Shown in pieces: positions 8,790 to 27,864 of a stretch of 64,000 nt of DNA. Each line of letters starts with the position of its first letter. Position 1 is the stretch's first letter. The stretch covers positions 7,240 to 71,239 of the forward strand of contig DATCOD010000194.1 in NCBI GenBank assembly GCA_036564905.1. The letters are read 5' to 3'. The notes below the pieces were generated by a model. That model had not been told where the DNA came from. It saw only the letters and a program-made list of their open reading frames with translations, and searched no databases. The translations under genes were made by a program, and so were the position numbers. This DNA comes from Candidatus Limnocylindria bacterium. Its GTDB lineage: Bacteria; Chloroflexota; Limnocylindria; P2-11E.

Positions 8790-10721
8790 ATGCCTGCGGC
8801 ATGGTCACCGACGGAACGCCACCTGGACCGCAGCCGGCTCCGCCGATTCGCGAACGCGCACGGCCTGACCAGCTACGACGCGCTGCTGTCCTGGGCGACC
8901 GACGACCTCGAGCGCTTCTGGCGTGCGGTCGACCGCGATCTCGGGCTCGTCTGGACCGCGCCCTACTCGGCCGCGCTGGACACCTCGCGGGGCATCCCCT
9001 GGACGACGTGGTGGACCGGCGGCCGGATGAACTACGTCGGAACCGCGCTGCGCTCGGATCGCGACCAGGATCGCGTGGCCGTGATCGCCGAGCGTGAGGA
9101 CGGGCGGGTCGATCGCCGGACCTACGGCGAGCTCCGCGCGGACGTGGCCCACTTCGGCGCGGGTCTGCGGGCCATCGGCGTGCGGAAGGGCGATCGCGTC
9201 GCGGTGTTCCTTCCGATGGGCATCGAGTGCGTCGTCGCCGTCCTCGCGCTCGGCGCGCTCGGCGCGATCTACACGCCGATCTTCTCGGGTTACGGCGCGG
9301 AGGCGATCGCCGGGCGGTTGCGCGACTGCGACGCGTCGGTCGTGATCTGCGCCGACGGGTTCCACCGGCGCGGCGCGATCGTGGCGATGAAGGAGACCGC
9401 CGACCTGGCGGCCGACGGCGCGCCCACGGTGAAGACGGTCGTCGTCGCCGAGCGGCTCGGTCGCGCGTATCCGAAGCGCGATCGCGACGTCACGTGGGCC
9501 GAGGTCGTGCGCCGCGGCAGCGCTCCGCTCGTCGCTTGGGAGGATACGAGCGCCGAGGACCCGTTCATGATCATCTACACCTCGGGCACCTCCGGCCGGC
9601 CGAAGGGCGCGGTCCACGTGCACGGCGGCTTCCCGGTGAAGGCCGCGCAGGACATGGCCCACTGCTTCGACGTGCAGAACGGCGACGTCGTCTTTTGGTT
9701 CACCGACATCGGCTGGATGATGGGCCCCTGGCTCATCGCCGGGGGGCTCATGCTCGGCGCGACGATCGTGCTCTACGACGGAACACCCGACTTCCCCGAT
9801 GAGTCGCGGCTGTGGTCGATGGTGGAACGACACGCGGTGACGCACCTCGGCATCTCGCCGACGGCGATCCGCGGCCTCATGCGCGCGGGCGAAGCGCCGG
9901 TCCGCAGGCACGACCGTTCGAGCCTGTTCGTGCTCGGGAGCACCGGCGAGCCCTGGAACCCCGAGCCGTGGTGGTGGTACTTCCGCACGGTCGGCGAGGC
10001 GCGCTGCCCGATCATCAACTACTCCGGCGGCACGGAGATCTCCGGCGGCATCCTCGGATGCACGACCTGGACGGACATCGAGCCCGGCTCGTTCCGCGGT
10101 CCGGTCCCGGGGATGGCCGCCGACGTCGTCGACGAGCACGGGCATCCGGTGCGGGGCGCGGTCGGCGAGCTCGTCCTGCGCGCCCCGTGGCCGGGGATGA
10201 CTCGTGGGTTCTGGAAGGATCGGGGGCGCTACCTCGAGACGTACTGGTCGCGCTTGACCGACGTATGGGTGCACGGTGACTGGGCGCGCGTCGACGACGA
10301 TGGCTTCTGGTACATCGAAGGGCGCAGCGACGACACGCTGAAGATCGCAGGGAAGCGCGTCGGCCCGGCCGAAGTCGAGTCCGCCGCGGTCGCCAACCCC
10401 GCGGTCGGCGAGGCCGCGGCCATCGGGGTGCCCGACGAGCTGAAAGGCGAGGCCATCGTCGTGTTCGCCGTGGCGAAGCGCGGCGTGATCATCGACGCCA
10501 CGCTGGAGCGGTCGGTCTCGGACACGATCGCCGAGCAGCTCGGGAAGCCGCTCCGGCCGAAGGCCGTGCGGTTCGTGGCGCAGCTCCCGAAGACGCGCAA
10601 CGGGAAGGTCCTCCGCCGGCTCATCCGCGGCGCGTACCTCGGCGTCACGGATCTCGGCGACACGTCAGCGCTCGAGGACCCAGCGGCCCTCGACGCGGTG
10701 CGCGCCGCGGCGCGAAGCTAG
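8790..10721 (+). CDS. AMP-forming acyl-CoA synthetase of the acetyl-/acetoacetyl-/propionyl-CoA synthetase family
   Basis: ACAS_N-like N-terminus (FW...W...YVGTAL). AMP-binding motif 'IIYTSGTSGRPKG'; 'YSGGTEISG'; conserved C-terminal Lys 'KTRNGKVLRR'. Confidence 0.85.
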   Translation: MPAAWSPTERHLDRSRLRRFANAHGLTSYDALLSWATDDLERFWRAVDRDLGLVWTAPYSAALDTSRGIPWTTWWTGGRMNYVGTALRSDRDQDRVAVIAEREDGRVDRRTYGELRADVAHFGAGLRAIGVRKGDRVAVFLPMGIECVVAVLALGALGAIYTPIFSGYGAEAIAGRLRDCDASVVICADGFHRRGAIVAMKETADLAADGAPTVKTVVVAERLGRAYPKRDRDVTWAEVVRRGSAPLVAWEDTSAEDPFMIIYTSGTSGRPKGAVHVHGGFPVKAAQDMAHCFDVQNGDVVFWFTDIGWMMGPWLIAGGLMLGATIVLYDGTPDFPDESRLWSMVERHAVTHLGISPTAIRGLMRAGEAPVRRHDRSSLFVLGSTGEPWNPEPWWWYFRTVGEARCPIINYSGGTEISGGILGCTTWTDIEPGSFRGPVPGMAADVVDEHGHPVRGAVGELVLRAPWPGMTRGFWKDRGRYLETYWSRLTDVWVHGDWARVDDDGFWYIEGRSDDTLKIAGKRVGPAEVESAAVANPAVGEAAAIGVPDELKGEAIVVFAVAKRGVIIDATLERSVSDTIAEQLGKPLRPKAVRFVAQLPKTRNGKVLRRLIRGAYLGVTDLGDTSALEDPAALDAVRAAARS

Positions 10722-10726
10722 AGGAG

Positions 10727-11161
10727 CTAGACCGGGGTCCGGTTGTTCGCGATCGCCCGTACCAATCCGACAACGAGCGCAGCGATGAGCAGCAGGGCCA
10801 CGATGGCGAGGACCGCCGGCAGGTCGAACACCACGGGTGTGTCCGTTCGCGGCCAGATCCCCTGGAACGGCCTGACGAGCGGCTCCGTGATCGCGTACAG
10901 CGCGGCGACGAGGGCCTGCTGCGGATTCGCGCCAAAGAGCTTGAGCGCGAAGCGGATGAGCAGCACGACCTCGAGGACCGTGAACACGAGCGTGATGACG
11001 CGCGTGGCGGTCCACACCGGGGCATATGGGCTCGTGCCGACGTTCGCCTGGCCCGTCGGTGGGACGGACTCGGACTCGCGGGTGCGCTCGACATGGTGTG
11101 CGATCACAGGCCTGTCGATGACCTCGGTCTCGTTGGTGTCTGGTTCGTGTGTCGTACTCAT
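10727..11161 (-). CDS. YggT-family small membrane protein
   Basis: 'ALKLFGANPQQALVAALYAITEPLVRPFQ' resembles the YGGT repeat. Hydrophobic C-terminus. Confidence 0.5.
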   Translation of the reverse strand: MSTTHEPDTNETEVIDRPVIAHHVERTRESESVPPTGQANVGTSPYAPVWTATRVITLVFTVLEVVLLIRFALKLFGANPQQALVAALYAITEPLVRPFQGIWPRTDTPVVFDLPAVLAIVALLLIAALVVGLVRAIANNRTPV

Positions 11162-26679: not shown

Positions 26680-26685
26680 TACGGG

Positions 26686-27864
26686 CTAGATGCGCTCGAA
26701 GATCGCCGCGATGCCCTGGCCGCCGCCGATGCAGAGCGAGGCGAGCCCGTAGCGGCCCTTCCGCTTCTGAAGCTCGGTGATGAGCGTGAGCGCGAGCCGG
26801 GCGCCCGAGGCGCCGAGCGGATGGCCGAGCGCGATCGCGCCGCCGTTCACGTTCGTCCTCTCGCGATCGAGGCCGAGATCCTTCTCGACGGCGAGGTACT
26901 GCGTCGCGAAGGCCTCGTTGATCTCGACCAGGTCCAGGTCCTGGACCTTCAGTCCCGCGCGCTTCAGCGCCTGACGGCTCGACGGCGCCGGGCCGATGCC
27001 CATGATGTCGGGGTCCACGCCGCACACGCCGCCGGAAACGACGCGCGCGATCGGGGTGAGGCCGGCCTTCTGCGCCGCCTCCGCGGACGCGATGACGAGC
27101 GCCGCCGCGCCGTCGTTGATGCCGCTCGCGTTTCCGGCGGTGACGGTGCCGTCCTTCTCGAAGCGCGCGACGAGCTTGCCGAGCGTCTCGAGCGTGGTGT
27201 CGGGGCGGATGTGCTCGTCCTTGTCGACGACGGTCACGCCCTTCTTCGTCTTCGCCTCGACGGGGACGATCTCCTCGCTGAACCGGCACGACTCACGGGC
27301 CTTGGCCGCGAGCATGTGGCTGCGATAGGCGAACTCGTCGGCCGCCTGGCGGCCGATGCCGTACTTCCGGCCGAGATTCTCGGCGGTGTTCGCCATGCCG
27401 AGACCGTTGTACGAGTCGACCAGCGCGACCCAGAGGTAGTCCTCGAGCTTCTGTTCGCCGAGCGGGAGCCCCCAGCGCGCGCCGCGGATCATGTGCGGGG
27501 CCATCGACATGTTCTCGGCGCCGCCGGCGAGGACGAAGTCCGCCTGGCCGAGCTGGATCTCCTGCGCGGCGAGGAGGATCGCCTGCAGGCCCGAGCCACA
27601 GAGCCGGTTGATCGTGAGCGCCGGCGCCTCGATCGGCGCGCCTGCCTTGAGGCCGATGTGCCGCGCGAAGTACACGGCGTCGCCGCTCGTCTGCAGGACG
27701 TTGCCGAAGATGATCTGGTCGATCTTGTCGGGCGAGACCTTCGACCGCTCGAGCGCGCCCTTGGCCGCGATGACCCCGAGGTCGGTCGCCGAGGTATCGC
27801 GCAGCGCGCCGCCGTAGGTGCCGAAGGCGGTGCGGGCGCCGCCAAGGACGACGATCTCTTTCAT
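26686..27864 (-). CDS. Acetyl-CoA C-acetyltransferase (thiolase II)
   Basis: 'LTINRLCGSGLQA' is the active-site Cys; 'NVNGGAIALGHPLGASGARL'; 'GLASLCIGGGQG'. Confidence 0.9.
   Translation of the reverse strand: MKEIVVLGGARTAFGTYGGALRDTSATDLGVIAAKGALERSKVSPDKIDQIIFGNVLQTSGDAVYFARHIGLKAGAPIEAPALTINRLCGSGLQAILLAAQEIQLGQADFVLAGGAENMSMAPHMIRGARWGLPLGEQKLEDYLWVALVDSYNGLGMANTAENLGRKYGIGRQAADEFAYRSHMLAAKARESCRFSEEIVPVEAKTKKGVTVVDKDEHIRPDTTLETLGKLVARFEKDGTVTAGNASGINDGAAALVIASAEAAQKAGLTPIARVVSGGVCGVDPDIMGIGPAPSSRQALKRAGLKVQDLDLVEINEAFATQYLAVEKDLGLDRERTNVNGGAIALGHPLGASGARLALTLITELQKRKGRYGLASLCIGGGQGIAAIFERI

What the first reader, a model, noticed from the sequence alone, without database searches (positions are those of the whole stretch)
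8790..27864. About 19-kb CoA-ester catabolic island resembling an alicyclic/aromatic acid (bad/ali-like) pathway
One block contains an AMP-forming CoA synthetase, a 4HBT thioesterase, two ACADs, the Bcr/Hgd-like complex, two crotonases (one possibly BadI/MenB-like), a BadH-like SDR, a Zn-ADH and a thiolase. MFS/DMT transporters and GNATs are interspersed. This mirrors the logic of the Rhodopseudomonas bad/ali pathway (ligase, reductase, hydratase, dehydrogenase, ring hydrolase) followed by beta-oxidation. The substrate is unknown.
Basis: inference. Interest (0 to 1): 0.5.

Follow-up and report, generated by a model that had tools for sequence, protein, structure and literature searches.

The report
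Soil Chloroflexota benzoyl-CoA reductase-like operon
The region holds a tightly packed operon for an ATP-driven, oxygen-sensitive enzyme that most likely reduces and then opens aromatic rings without oxygen, in an uncultured soil bacterium, and the same gene set recurs in hundreds of uncultured soil lineages where nobody has tested it.

Summary
Only about 10 kb (15357-25102) is a conserved functional unit. It reads: PAS response regulator, GNAT, four class-I-benzoyl-CoA-reductase-like genes in the Thauera order bcrCBAD, a MenB/BadI/Oah-type crotonase, an SDR, a hemerythrin, a second crotonase and a Zn-ADH. Eight of these genes are joined by overlapping stop/start codons or a 9-base gap. The host is an uncultured Chloroflexota bacterium (Ca. 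Limnocylindria, 97% to MAG UBA4730). The reductase clade occurs in 426 species genomes. All of the best 80 are MAGs. The same module recurs in Ktedonobacterales, Eremiobacterota and a Thermoplasmata archaeon. The reductase subunits are 35-60% identical to the solved 3-methylbenzoyl-CoA reductase. They score higher on the BcrB/BcrC models than that validated enzyme does. The reductase + two crotonases + Zn-ADH logic matches the Thauera Dch/Had/Oah route better than the Rhodopseudomonas bad/ali route. Orthology of the three downstream enzymes is not established. The flanking ligase, thioesterase, ACADs, transporter and thiolase are syntenic only in the closest relative. No benzoate-CoA ligase or ferredoxin gene lies nearby. 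Verdict: a distinct, uncharacterised lineage of a known enzyme system, of moderate interest.

The parts
15357..16448 (+). Response regulator with REC, OmpR-type winged helix and C-terminal PAS domains. It is the candidate regulator of the operon.
   Evidence: Pfam Response_reg, Trans_reg_C and PAS. The same architecture lies upstream of GNAT-BcrC in Limnocylindria, and divergently upstream in Ktedonobacterales and one unnamed contig.
16491..16922 (+). Small GNAT acetyltransferase, first gene of the coupled run. Proposed BadL-like small-molecule acetyltransferase that generates an inducer; this role is inferred.
   Evidence: Pfam Acetyltransf_1. Its stop overlaps the BcrC-like start (GTGA). A GNAT lies within 8 kb in 26 of 39 well-flanked loci. 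Precedent: BadL/BadM (PMC6191541). Orthology to BadL was not tested.
16919..18082 (+). BcrC-like (gamma) subunit of the reductase, HGD-D family.
   Evidence: TIGR02263 BcrC 297 bits (cut-off 421). HadC 208, BzdN 100. PDB MbdN 260 bits, 38% identity.
18079..19368 (+). BcrB-like (beta) catalytic subunit, HGD-D family.
   Evidence: TIGR02260 BcrB 311.5 bits (cut-off 487). HadB 196. PDB MbdO 243 bits, 35% identity. Cys92, Cys126, Cys363, Glu63 and Tyr94 align with BzdO Cys95, Cys128, Cys380, Glu65 and Tyr97 (PMC11971306).
19365..20165 (+). BcrA/MbdQ-like (alpha) ATPase subunit in the compact 266-aa form.
   Evidence: Pfam BcrAD_BadFG. MbdQ 339 bits, 60% identity. NDKCAAG and VCTIFVES cluster-cysteine motifs.
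20162..20965 (+). BcrD-like (delta) ATPase subunit.
   Evidence: TIGR02261 BcrD 168 bits, the best equivalog. 38% identical to the alpha paralogue. Both HgdC Cys127/Cys166 equivalents are present.
20962..21918 (+). MenB/BadI/Oah-type crotonase (318 aa with a C-terminal tail of about 59 aa). Candidate ring-cleaving hydrolase.
   Evidence: NCBIfam best hit Oah TIGR03200 197 bits (cut-off 464), then MenB 183 and BadI 169. Best PDB match MenB 2UZF, 159 bits. The MenB 'GSFDAG' motif reads 'GSVAAG' here. The family sits beside bcrCBAD-like genes in four lineages.
21905..22684 (+). SDR, FabG/acetoacetyl-CoA-reductase-like. Candidate 3-hydroxyacyl-CoA (3-hydroxypimelyl-CoA) dehydrogenase; this role is inferred.
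   Evidence: Pfam adh_short. NCBIfam FabG 267 bits, acetoacetyl-CoA reductase 248. Present at this position in Limnocylindria. An SDR also directly follows bcrD in Binatia and delta loci.
22694..23128 (+). Hemerythrin/HHE di-iron protein. Candidate O2/NO sensor, scavenger or Fe-S repair factor for the reductase; this role is inferred.
   Evidence: Pfam Hemerythrin 75.6 bits. H/HxxxE motifs are visible in the sequence. A hemerythrin lies within 8 kb in 25 of 39 well-flanked loci from several phyla.
23125..23895 (-). Second crotonase of the ordinary hydratase type. Candidate dienoyl-CoA hydratase.
   Evidence: Pfam ECH_1. Best NCBIfam hits are generic enoyl-CoA hydratases (162 bits). Dch TIGR03189 scores 132 (cut-off 292.5), ranked 7th. 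It co-occurs with the Zn-ADH next to bcrCBAD in other phyla.
24080..25102 (+). Medium-chain Zn alcohol dehydrogenase. Candidate 6-hydroxycyclohex-1-ene-1-carbonyl-CoA dehydrogenase.
   Evidence: NCBIfam best hit Had TIGR03201 224 bits (cut-off 339). The Eremiobacterota orthologue is also best on Had, 239 bits. Solved Had 7QUY scores 160 bits, below a generic ADH (1RJW, 177.5).
8790..15251 (.). Left flank, not part of the conserved module: ACS-like ligase, YGGT, 4HBT thioesterase, ACAD, two genes without a family, ACAD.
   Evidence: Pfam and NCBIfam. Syntenic only in L005. The second-best hit of ACAD 14079-15251 is the non-decarboxylating glutaryl-CoA dehydrogenase, 345 bits (cut-off 470).
25244..27864 (.). 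Right flank, not part of the conserved module: second GNAT, EamA transporter, BktB-like thiolase.
   Evidence: Pfam and NCBIfam. GNAT2 and EamA homologues were found only in L005. The thiolase was not found beside any close relative; 41-46% identical thiolases lie about 5-6 kb from the reductase genes in ten other loci, nine of them Acidobacteriota.

Best explanation
Core 15357-25102 encodes an ATP-dependent class-I-type aryl-CoA (most likely benzoyl-CoA or a close analogue) dearomatising reductase, together with the enzymes that open the reduced ring.

Proposed mechanism (family knowledge plus inference):
1. Two different BcrAD-type ATPases form a heterodimer that bridges a [4Fe-4S] cluster. 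They use ATP hydrolysis to push electrons from reduced ferredoxin to the BcrB/BcrC-like catalytic dimer.
2. The BcrB-like subunit reduces the aromatic ring at a three-cysteine [4Fe-4S] cluster to a cyclic dienoyl-CoA.
3. The ordinary crotonase hydrates the diene.
4. The Zn-ADH oxidises the resulting 6-hydroxy-enoyl-CoA.
5. The MenB/BadI/Oah-type crotonase hydrolytically opens the ring to 3-hydroxypimelyl-CoA.
6. The SDR oxidises that product for thiolysis.
7. The GNAT, together with the PAS response regulator (an Rrf2 regulator in Acidobacteriota), controls expression. The analogy is BadL/BadM in Rhodopseudomonas.
8. The hemerythrin senses, scavenges or repairs damage from O2 or NO for the oxygen-labile Fe-S enzyme.

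Shown here: gene content, coupling, synteny, family assignment, and conserved cluster ligands. Inferred: the substrate, each downstream step, and the regulatory and protective roles.
For: - Four-gene architecture in Thauera order: two HGD-D plus two BcrAD_BadFG genes.
- All four subunits score best on BCR models. BcrC 297 against HadC 208. BcrB 311.5 against HadB 196. The ATPases score best on MbdQ or BcrD.
- Control: the experimentally validated MBR subunits MbdO and MbdN score only 220 and 227 bits on the same BcrB/BcrC models. The sub-threshold scores here therefore do not argue against reductase function.
- The cluster ligands and the catalytic Glu of the beta subunit, and both bridging-cluster Cys in each ATPase, are conserved (PMC11971306).
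- The two ATPases are only 38% identical to each other, and both are present in 78 of 83 loci.
- Stop/start overlaps or a 9-base gap run from GNAT to hemerythrin.
- The set {MenB/Oah-type crotonase, Zn-ADH, second crotonase, bcrCBAD} is syntenic in Limnocylindria, Ktedonobacterales, Eremiobacterota and a Thermoplasmata archaeon.
- A PFOR gene follows the module in Ktedonobacterales.
- A bona fide non-decarboxylating glutaryl-CoA dehydrogenase (491 bits, cut-off 470) lies in the delta-proteobacterial version.
- The GNAT-Rrf2-bcrCBAD arrangement in Acidobacteriota mirrors BadL-BadM-badDEFG (PMC6191541).
Against: - No subunit reaches its NCBIfam equivalog cut-off.
- The catalytic subunits are only 35-38% identical to the nearest solved reductase.
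- BzdO His131 is Tyr here; it is Phe in MbdO.
- The Zn-ADH is no closer to solved Had than to generic ADHs.
- The second crotonase is generic.
- The ring-hydrolase candidate lacks the MenB active-site Asp.
- JGI annotates that crotonase family only as enoyl-CoA hydratase or naphthoate synthase, never as Oah.
- No aromatic-acid CoA ligase, ferredoxin or ferredoxin-reducing enzyme lies in the window.
- No member of the clade has been characterised, and the best 80 genome hits are all uncultured MAGs.
Confidence: 0.68

Rival explanations
1. The four genes encode a BCR/HAD-family ATP-driven radical reductase that acts on a different CoA ester. The substrate could be a substituted aryl-CoA (hydroxy-, amino- or methyl-benzoyl-CoA), a partly reduced or bicyclic ring, or another hard-to-reduce acyl-CoA. 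The downstream crotonases and ADH would be tailored to that substrate rather than being Dch/Had/Oah equivalents.
For: All subunits and all three downstream enzymes fall below their equivalog cut-offs. Identity to MbdO/MbdN is 35-38%. The His131 position differs. The hydrolase candidate has an altered MenB active-site motif. The Zn-ADH is not specifically Had-like in pairwise comparison. Downstream gene sets differ between phyla: SDR + Amidohydro_2 + two crotonases in delta and Binatia loci. Known relatives (MBR) already show shifts of substrate within the family.
Against: BcrB-like proteins are 66-70% identical across phyla, which suggests one conserved and common substrate. The reductase + hydratase + Zn-ADH + MenB-type hydrolase set is exactly the benzoyl-CoA logic. 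A glutaryl-CoA dehydrogenase sits in one version. The GNAT/Rrf2 parallel with the bad cluster also points to benzoyl-CoA.
Confidence: 0.18
2. The HGD-D pair is a 2-hydroxyacyl-CoA dehydratase of an amino-acid or hydroxy-acid fermentation pathway, and the two BcrAD genes are its activator(s).
For: Same superfamily. HadB/HadC are the second-best hits: 196 and 208 bits on NCBIfam, 178 and 182 bits in the PDB. The window proteins score higher on the Had models than MbdO/MbdN do (136 and 157). Both neighbouring ACADs hit the acryloyl-CoA reductase AcrC model best, 393-394 bits against a cut-off of 640.
Against: Known dehydratases use a single homodimeric activator gene (PMC11971306, introduction). 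Here there are two paralogues only 38% identical, conserved as a pair in 78 of 83 loci. BCR models always score higher. No CoA-transferase or 2-hydroxyacid dehydrogenase is nearby. The ACADs are not conserved with the cluster. The conserved partners are crotonases and a Zn-ADH.
Confidence: 0.07
3. The whole 19-kb stretch is one catabolic island. The ACS-like ligase would activate the substrate, and the thioesterase, two ACADs and thiolase would complete a bad/ali-like alicyclic acid pathway.
For: Twelve of about 21 genes act on CoA esters. ACAD 14079-15251 is 345 bits on the glutaryl-CoA dehydrogenase Acd model. Unrelated loci also carry an ACAD and a thiolase within 10 kb of the reductase genes.
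Against: The flanks (without the thiolase) are syntenic only in L005 and are absent from Limnocylindria with 86-90% identical BcrB. The ligase is an acetate/acetoacetate-CoA ligase paralogue: 586 and 460 bits, against 174 for the benzoate-CoA ligase family. AliB and BadI models score far below cut-off. Strands and gene orientation are mixed.
Confidence: 0.07

Closest known systems
Thauera aromatica-type benzoyl-CoA pathway (bcrCBAD with dch, had, oah)
   Same: Gene order gamma-beta-alpha-delta. Two HGD-D plus two distinct BcrAD ATPases. Best profile hits are BcrC, BcrB and BcrD. The partners are a Zn-ADH (best profile Had), a MenB/BadI/Oah-type crotonase (best profile Oah) and a hydratase-type crotonase.
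   Different: All scores are below the equivalog cut-offs. The alpha subunit lacks the N-terminal part of the 432-position BcrA model and matches only positions 215-432. No ferredoxin or 2-oxoglutarate:ferredoxin oxidoreductase gene is adjacent. Extra operon members are a GNAT, an SDR, a hemerythrin and a REC-wHTH-PAS regulator. The host is an uncultured Chloroflexota rather than a denitrifying proteobacterium.
3-methylbenzoyl-CoA reductase MbdONQP (MBR type; PDB 9G87, 9GAI)
   Same: Closest solved structure for the beta, gamma and alpha subunits: MbdO 243, MbdN 260, MbdQ 339 bits. The delta-like subunit also hits MbdQ best (215 bits; MbdP 180). The alpha subunit is compact and 60% identical. 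The cysteine pattern in the gamma subunit is the same.
   Different: The catalytic subunits are only 35% and 38% identical. The gene order differs if the name mbdONQP reflects it (not checked here; CBAD in the window). The window proteins score about 70-90 bits higher than MbdO/MbdN on the Thauera/Rhodopseudomonas BcrB/BcrC models, so they are not MBR-type either.
Rhodopseudomonas palustris bad/ali cluster (badDEFG, badK/H/I, aliA/B, badL/badM)
   Same: A BCR-type reductase with an SDR and two crotonases nearby. A small GNAT sits next to the reductase genes, as BadL does. In Acidobacteriota relatives the GNAT is paired with an Rrf2 regulator, as BadL is with BadM (PMC6191541).
   Different: The BadI, AliB and benzoate-CoA-ligase models score far below cut-off. 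The BadH model is not among the SDR's best 25 hits. A Zn-ADH, absent from the bad route, is a conserved member. The window's regulator is a PAS response regulator, not Rrf2. No badB-like ferredoxin is present.
Aromatoleum BzdNOPQ (BZD type; PDB 8S02)
   Same: Same superfamily. The three Cys ligands, Glu65 and Tyr97 of BzdO are conserved (PMC11971306).
   Different: It is the most distant of the BCR types: BzdO 124 and BzdN 97 bits. Two of the inferred BzdN double-cubane cysteines are not conserved. His131 is replaced by Tyr.
2-Hydroxyacyl-CoA dehydratases (HadBC+HadI, HgdAB+HgdC)
   Same: Same BCR/HAD radical enzyme family. The [4Fe-4S] ligands and the ATPase fold and cluster cysteines are shared.
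   Different: The dehydratases have one activator gene, against two diverged ATPase genes here. Scores are lower for every subunit. No fermentation context (CoA-transferase, 2-hydroxyacid dehydrogenase) is present.

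Membership tests
Class I (ATP-dependent) benzoyl-CoA reductase | Heterotetramer genes: two HGD-D-family subunits plus two BcrAD_BadFG ATPase subunits, adjacent | tested here: met
   Pfam HGD-D twice and BcrAD_BadFG twice, contiguous with ATGA overlaps.
Class I (ATP-dependent) benzoyl-CoA reductase | Two different ATPase subunits (alpha not equal to delta) rather than one homodimeric activator | tested here: met
   The paralogues are 38% identical. Both are present in 78 of 83 related loci.
Class I (ATP-dependent) benzoyl-CoA reductase | Bridging [4Fe-4S] cysteines in both ATPases (equivalents of HgdC Cys127 and Cys166; that these are the ligands is from my own recollection) | tested here: met
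   NDKCAAG plus VCTIFVES in the alpha subunit and NDKCAAG plus VCAVFAESE in the delta subunit. These align with 1HUX positions 127 and 166.
Class I (ATP-dependent) benzoyl-CoA reductase | Beta-subunit active site: three Cys ligands of the aqua-[4Fe-4S] cluster, the catalytic Glu, and the thioester-binding Tyr | tested here: met
   Cys92, Cys126, Cys363, Glu63 and Tyr94 align with BzdO Cys95, Cys128, Cys380, Glu65 and Tyr97 (PMC11971306). HadB shares these residues, so they place the protein in the family but do not separate reductase from dehydratase.
Class I (ATP-dependent) benzoyl-CoA reductase | BzdO His131 next to the cluster-bound water | tested here: inconclusive
   The position is Tyr129 in the window protein and Phe in the validated MbdO, from my register on the conserved Trp of the alignment. 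The residue is therefore not universal among class I reductases.
Class I (ATP-dependent) benzoyl-CoA reductase | Score above the NCBIfam equivalog cut-offs (TIGR02263/02260/02259/02261) | tested here: not met
   297/421, 311.5/487, 199/578 and 168/313 bits. Control: the validated MbdN and MbdO also fail, at 227 and 220 bits.
Class I (ATP-dependent) benzoyl-CoA reductase | Low-potential ferredoxin and a ferredoxin-reducing enzyme encoded with the reductase | tested here: not met
   No CxxCxxCxxxCP motif occurs in any frame of the window. No PFOR or KGOR was found among the window genes scanned with Pfam. A PFOR does follow the module in Ktedonobacterales locus L088.
Class I (ATP-dependent) benzoyl-CoA reductase | ATP-stoichiometric two-electron reduction of benzoyl-CoA to the cyclic 1,5-dienoyl-CoA | not testable with these tools
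   Requires anaerobic enzymology.
BZD-type reductase | Six-cysteine double-cubane [8Fe-9S] site in the gamma subunit | tested here: not met
   Two of the BzdN cysteines that I take to be cluster ligands (the paper does not number them) align with Val and Met in the window protein and are also absent from MbdN (PMC11971306).
Thauera-type ring-opening enzymes (Dch, Had, Oah) | Oah equivalog (TIGR03200) | tested here: inconclusive
   It is the best hit but scores 197 against a cut-off of 464, in two stretches. MenB scores 183 and BadI 169. The MenB 'SFD' motif reads 'SVA'. JGI does not name the family Oah.
Thauera-type ring-opening enzymes (Dch, Had, Oah) | Had equivalog (TIGR03201) | tested here: inconclusive
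   It is the best hit, at 224 against a cut-off of 339. The Eremiobacterota orthologue scores 239. Solved Had 7QUY scores 160 bits, below generic ADH 1RJW at 177.5.
Thauera-type ring-opening enzymes (Dch, Had, Oah) | Dch equivalog (TIGR03189) | tested here: not met
   132 against a cut-off of 292.5, ranked 7th behind generic enoyl-CoA hydratases.
Thauera-type ring-opening enzymes (Dch, Had, Oah) | Two crotonases and a Zn-ADH encoded next to the reductase genes | tested here: met
   Seen in the window and in Limnocylindria, Ktedonobacterales, Eremiobacterota and Thermoplasmata loci.
Rhodopseudomonas bad/ali pathway | BadI, AliB and BadA/AliA-type ligase equivalogs | tested here: not met
   BadI 169/468. 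Cyclohexanecarboxyl-CoA dehydrogenase 198 and 218/575. Benzoate-CoA ligase family 174/375.
Rhodopseudomonas bad/ali pathway | GNAT (BadL) plus regulator (BadM, Rrf2) beside the reductase operon | tested here: inconclusive
   A GNAT is present and coupled to bcrC. The window has no Rrf2, but 13 Acidobacteriota loci show GNAT-Rrf2-bcrCBAD. No BadL sequence was available to test orthology.
2-Hydroxyacyl-CoA dehydratase | Single activator gene, HadB/HadC equivalogs, CoA-transferase and 2-hydroxyacid dehydrogenase in the neighbourhood | tested here: not met
   There are two ATPase paralogues. HadB scores 196/750 and HadC 208/700. No such neighbours are present.

The most novel reading that the evidence does not exclude
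This would be a fourth, uncharacterised lineage of ATP-dependent dearomatising reductases. It travels as a fixed module (GNAT, regulator, reductase, ring-opening enzymes, hemerythrin) through soil lineages generally regarded as aerobic (from my own knowledge): Limnocylindria, Ktedonobacterales, Acidobacteriota, Eremiobacterota, Binatia. It also occurs in a Thermoplasmata archaeon. The hemerythrin would let an oxygen-labile Birch-type reductase operate in fluctuating or micro-oxic soil. If so, oxygen-independent ring reduction would be a widespread, overlooked route of aromatic (lignin-derived) carbon turnover in ordinary soils. The substrate range might also differ from that of the proteobacterial enzymes.
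Probability: 0.3. Interest if true: 0.7.

Novelty: new variant of a known kind. Interest (0 to 1): 0.45.

Why it matters
According to the structural paper read here (PMC11971306), the best-studied class I benzoyl-CoA reductases come from denitrifying Thauera species. The clade found here is present in 426 species-level genomes, and all of the best 80 are uncultured. Annotation pipelines label it 'benzoyl-CoA reductase', and metagenome papers count it as anaerobic aromatic degradation (10.1101/2025.11.25.690425; PMC11704145). No biochemical study of a member turned up in the literature searches. It fails the curated equivalog thresholds and is only 35-38% identical in its catalytic subunits to the nearest solved enzyme. 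Showing what it reduces, and whether the conserved hemerythrin and GNAT give it oxygen tolerance or a particular mode of regulation, would either validate or correct a widely used metagenomic marker for anoxic aromatic carbon turnover in soils.

Tried and rejected
- Literature searches for 'benzoyl-CoA reductase' with Limnocylindria and for '3-methylbenzoyl-CoA reductase' found nothing. The MBR paper PMC6028946 is not held.
- I looked for sequence motifs that separate reductases from dehydratases. The three Cys, Glu and Tyr of the beta subunit are shared with HadB. His131 and the double-cubane cysteines are specific to the BZD type and absent from MBR too. Motifs therefore could not decide the question.
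- I hoped that source names for homologues of the MenB/Oah-type crotonase would give an independent KO-based call. They are only 'enoyl-CoA hydratase/carnithine racemase' or 'naphthoate synthase'.
- The Zn-ADH against the PDB did not single out Had.
- The GNAT against the PDB gave only weak generic GNAT hits and no BadL structure.
- A ferredoxin motif scan and Pfam annotation of the window genes outside the finding found no electron-donor genes, only his, ilv and leu biosynthesis and other housekeeping genes.
- No full phylogeny was built against reference BcrB, BadE, MbrB, HgdA, FldB or LcdA, because those sequences could not be obtained with the tools. Profile bit scores, with the MBR control, were used instead.
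- The idea that the whole 19 kb is one island was rejected on synteny.
- Structure prediction, fold search and the representative-protein search were not used. The families are clear from sequence, so these tools would not have addressed the open question of substrate.

Full report
**Observation**

The window is about 71% GC, so real coding frames were picked by third-position GC and start codons were refined from in-frame candidates.

| Coordinates | Gene |
|---|---|
| 7479-8780+ | MFS transporter (just outside the stated start) |
| 8790-10721+ | ACS-type AMP ligase |
| 11208-11639+ | 4HBT thioesterase |
| 11639-12784+ and 14079-15251- | ACADs |
| 16491-16922+ and 25244-25687- | GNATs |
| 16919-18082+ and 18079-19368+ | HGD-D genes |
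| 19365-20165+ and 20162-20965+ | BcrAD_BadFG ATPase genes |
| 20962-21918+ and 23125-23895- | crotonases |
| 21905-22684+ | SDR |
| 24080-25102+ | Zn-ADH |
| 25738-26679+ | EamA transporter |
| 26686-27864- | thiolase |

**Operon structure**

From the first GNAT to the SDR, each stop codon overlaps the next start: GTGA or ATGA at five junctions and a 14-base overlap at the sixth. The hemerythrin follows after 9 bases. The second crotonase converges on the hemerythrin. The Zn-ADH diverges from that crotonase across 184 bases.

**Host and distribution**

The BcrB-like protein has thousands of relatives, all from metagenomes. Those that carry names come from Ca. Limnocylindria, Chloroflexota, Acidobacteria, Binatia, Methylomirabilia and Vulcanimicrobiaceae. 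JGI names them 'benzoyl-CoA reductase subunit B'.

A scan of one genome per species found 426 genomes with a relative. All of the best 80 are MAGs. The closest is Chloroflexi bacterium UBA4730 at 97%. BcrB-like proteins remain 66-70% identical across phyla.

**Synteny**

A tblastn of the window's 23 proteins against 83 loci shows bcrC-B-A-D in that order at essentially every complete locus. The neighbourhood varies by lineage:

- **Limnocylindria:** PAS regulator, GNAT, bcrCBAD, the MenB/Oah-type crotonase (63-84% identity), an SDR, sometimes a hemerythrin, the second crotonase and the Zn-ADH.
- **Flanking genes:** homologues of the left-flank genes, GNAT2 and EamA appear only in L005, and the thiolase in no close relative. 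Limnocylindria with 86-90% identical BcrB lack them. The conserved unit is therefore 15357-25102, not the full 19 kb.
- **Eremiobacterota:** TetR, crotonase, MenB/BadI/Oah-type crotonase, Zn-ADH, bcrCBAD, hemerythrin.
- **Other lineages found from the crotonase:** a search starting from the MenB/Oah-type crotonase led to Ktedonobacterales, an unnamed contig and a Thermoplasmata archaeon. All carry GNAT, both crotonases, the Zn-ADH and bcrCBAD. The two bacterial loci also carry the PAS regulator, and two of the three carry a hemerythrin. A PFOR gene follows directly in Ktedonobacterales.
- **One delta-proteobacterial locus:** bcrCBAD is followed by an SDR, an Amidohydro_2 protein, two crotonases, a GNAT, and an ACAD that passes the cut-off for non-decarboxylating glutaryl-CoA dehydrogenase, at 491 bits against 470.

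**Accessory genes**

Iterated profile searches were run over all ORFs of the loci. Among 39 loci with at least 6 kb on both sides, the counts within 8 kb were:

| Accessory gene | Loci out of 39 |
|---|---|
| Hemerythrin | 25 |
| GNAT | 26 |
| Rrf2 regulator | 14 (13 of them together with a GNAT) |
| PAS response regulator | 12 |

Acidobacteriota show hemerythrin, then about 1 kb further on GNAT, Rrf2 and bcrCBAD. This mirrors R. palustris. There the GNAT BadL acetylates aminobenzoates, and the products release the Rrf2 repressor BadM from the badDEFGAB promoter (PMC6191541). Hemerythrin/HHE proteins of unknown role have also been noted in benzoate (box) clusters of Rhodocyclales (PMC6449761).

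**Reductase or dehydratase?**

- All four subunits score best on BCR models: BcrC 297, BcrB 311.5, BcrD 168. The alpha subunit matches the C-terminal part of the BcrA model. HadC and HadB score 208 and 196.
- The closest solved structure for the beta, gamma and alpha subunits is 3-methylbenzoyl-CoA reductase: MbdO 243, MbdN 260, MbdQ 339 bits. The delta-like subunit also hits MbdQ best (215 bits; MbdP 180). Identities are 35%, 38%, 60% and 40%.
- None reaches its equivalog cut-off. As a control, MbdO and MbdN were rebuilt from the printed alignments. They score only 220 and 227 bits on the BcrB and BcrC models, lower than the window proteins. Failing these cut-offs therefore does not argue against reductase function.
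- The three Cys ligands, Glu65 and Tyr97 of BzdO (PMC11971306) are conserved, but HadB has them too.
- BzdO His131 is Tyr here and Phe in MbdO.
- Two of the BzdN cysteines that I take to be double-cubane ligands are missing here and in MbdN.
- Both ATPases keep the two cluster cysteines and are only 38% identical to each other. That fits the heterodimeric BCR module rather than the homodimeric activator of dehydratases.

**Downstream enzymes**

- **First crotonase.** It belongs to the MenB/BadI/Oah group: Oah 197, MenB 183, BadI 169 bits, all sub-threshold. Its best PDB match is MenB, but the MenB 'GSFDAG' motif reads 'GSVAAG'.
- **Zn-ADH.** Its best profile is Had (224 bits, cut-off 339). The Eremiobacterota orthologue is also best on Had, at 239. 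In pairwise comparison, solved Had (160 bits) ranks below generic ADHs (177.5).
- **Second crotonase.** It is generic; Dch ranks 7th.
- **SDR.** It resembles FabG and acetoacetyl-CoA reductase.

The Dch/Had/Oah roles therefore rest mainly on the conserved co-occurrence of exactly these enzyme types with the reductase, not on orthology.

**What is missing**

The ligase is an acetate/acetoacetate-CoA-ligase paralogue (586 and 460 bits), not a benzoate-CoA ligase (174 bits against a cut-off of 375). No ferredoxin motif occurs anywhere in the window. The other genes in the window are his, ilv and leu biosynthesis and other housekeeping genes.

**Conclusion**

The most likely reading (about 0.68) is an ATP-dependent, class-I-type aryl-CoA dearomatising reductase with ring-opening enzymes that follow the Thauera logic. 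A BadL-like GNAT with a PAS response regulator would control it, and a hemerythrin accompanies it.

The main rival is the same machinery acting on a different CoA-ester substrate (about 0.18). A 2-hydroxyacyl-CoA dehydratase and the single 19-kb bad/ali-like island are each unlikely (about 0.07).

Metagenome papers already count such genes as class I BCR in these phyla (10.1101/2025.11.25.690425; PMC11704145). The presence of the genes is therefore not new. The new points are three. The lineage is distinct from the BCR, MBR and BZD types. Its module is fixed and includes a hemerythrin and a GNAT. No biochemical study of a member turned up in the searches.

Noticed in passing
window 2355-4670 (+): A ThyX (flavin-dependent thymidylate synthase) gene interrupted by an intein that carries an HNH endonuclease domain. 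Pfam hits: Thy1 in two stretches, Intein_splicing, HNH.
   Followed up: no
window 4379-5740 (+): A histone-deacetylase-family (Zn-dependent deacetylase) gene lies about 3 kb upstream of the ACS-like ligase, whose C-terminus carries the usual PKTRNGK lysine motif. From my own recollection, R. palustris acyl-CoA synthetases of benzoate catabolism are regulated by lysine acetylation and deacetylation. No link was tested here.
   Followed up: no
window 25013-25243 (-), directly downstream of GNAT 25244-25687: A 76-codon ORF with coding-like GC3 continues in the same frame straight after the GNAT's TGA stop. It has no Pfam hit. It could be a separate small gene, a read-through or a remnant.
   Followed up: partly
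window 12908-13822 (+) and 13762-14076 (-): Two genes with strong coding signal but no Pfam or NCBIfam family. One is an Ala-rich 304-aa protein with N-terminal hydrophobic stretches. The other is a 104-aa acidic protein. Both are conserved only in the closest relative L005.
   Followed up: partly
window 15357-16448 (+); also L084, L086, L088: A response regulator with an unusual domain order: receiver, OmpR-type winged helix, then a C-terminal PAS domain. It is conserved next to the GNAT of the reductase module in Limnocylindria and Ktedonobacterales.
   Followed up: partly
L087 (JGI 3300025146, source name 'Thermoplasmata archaeon'): The GNAT, two crotonases, Zn-ADH, bcrCBAD-like genes and hemerythrin occur on a contig whose crotonase is attributed to a Thermoplasmata archaeon and is 66% identical to the window's. 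This suggests transfer between domains or a binning error.
   Followed up: no
L010 (JAYTLP010000460, labelled Myxococcales, 2.8 kb): A BcrB-like gene 85-86% identical to the Limnocylindria one sits on a short contig binned as Myxococcales. This is probably mis-binning.
   Followed up: no
L003/L029 and 11 other Acidobacteriota loci, about 4 kb upstream of bcrB: In L003 the hemerythrin is the RIC/ScdA type (ScdA_N + Hemerythrin, an iron-sulfur cluster repair family). In these loci it lies upstream of GNAT-Rrf2-bcrCBAD, with a SnoaL-like gene in between in L003. This hints that the recurrent hemerythrin is there to repair or protect Fe-S clusters.
   Followed up: partly
L075 13822-14676 (delta-proteobacterial MAG): An Amidohydro_2 (PF04909) gene sits between the SDR and the two crotonases downstream of bcrCBAD, in place of the Zn-ADH seen in Chloroflexota. 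Its role is unknown.
   Followed up: no
window 37656-58357: Ordinary biosynthetic genes fill the right half of the window: hisIE, hisF, an aminotransferase, a HisRS-like gene, ilvB, ilvC, leuA, ilvD, ilvA and leuC-type aconitase-family genes. The reductase module therefore sits in core chromosome, not on an obvious mobile element.
   Followed up: no
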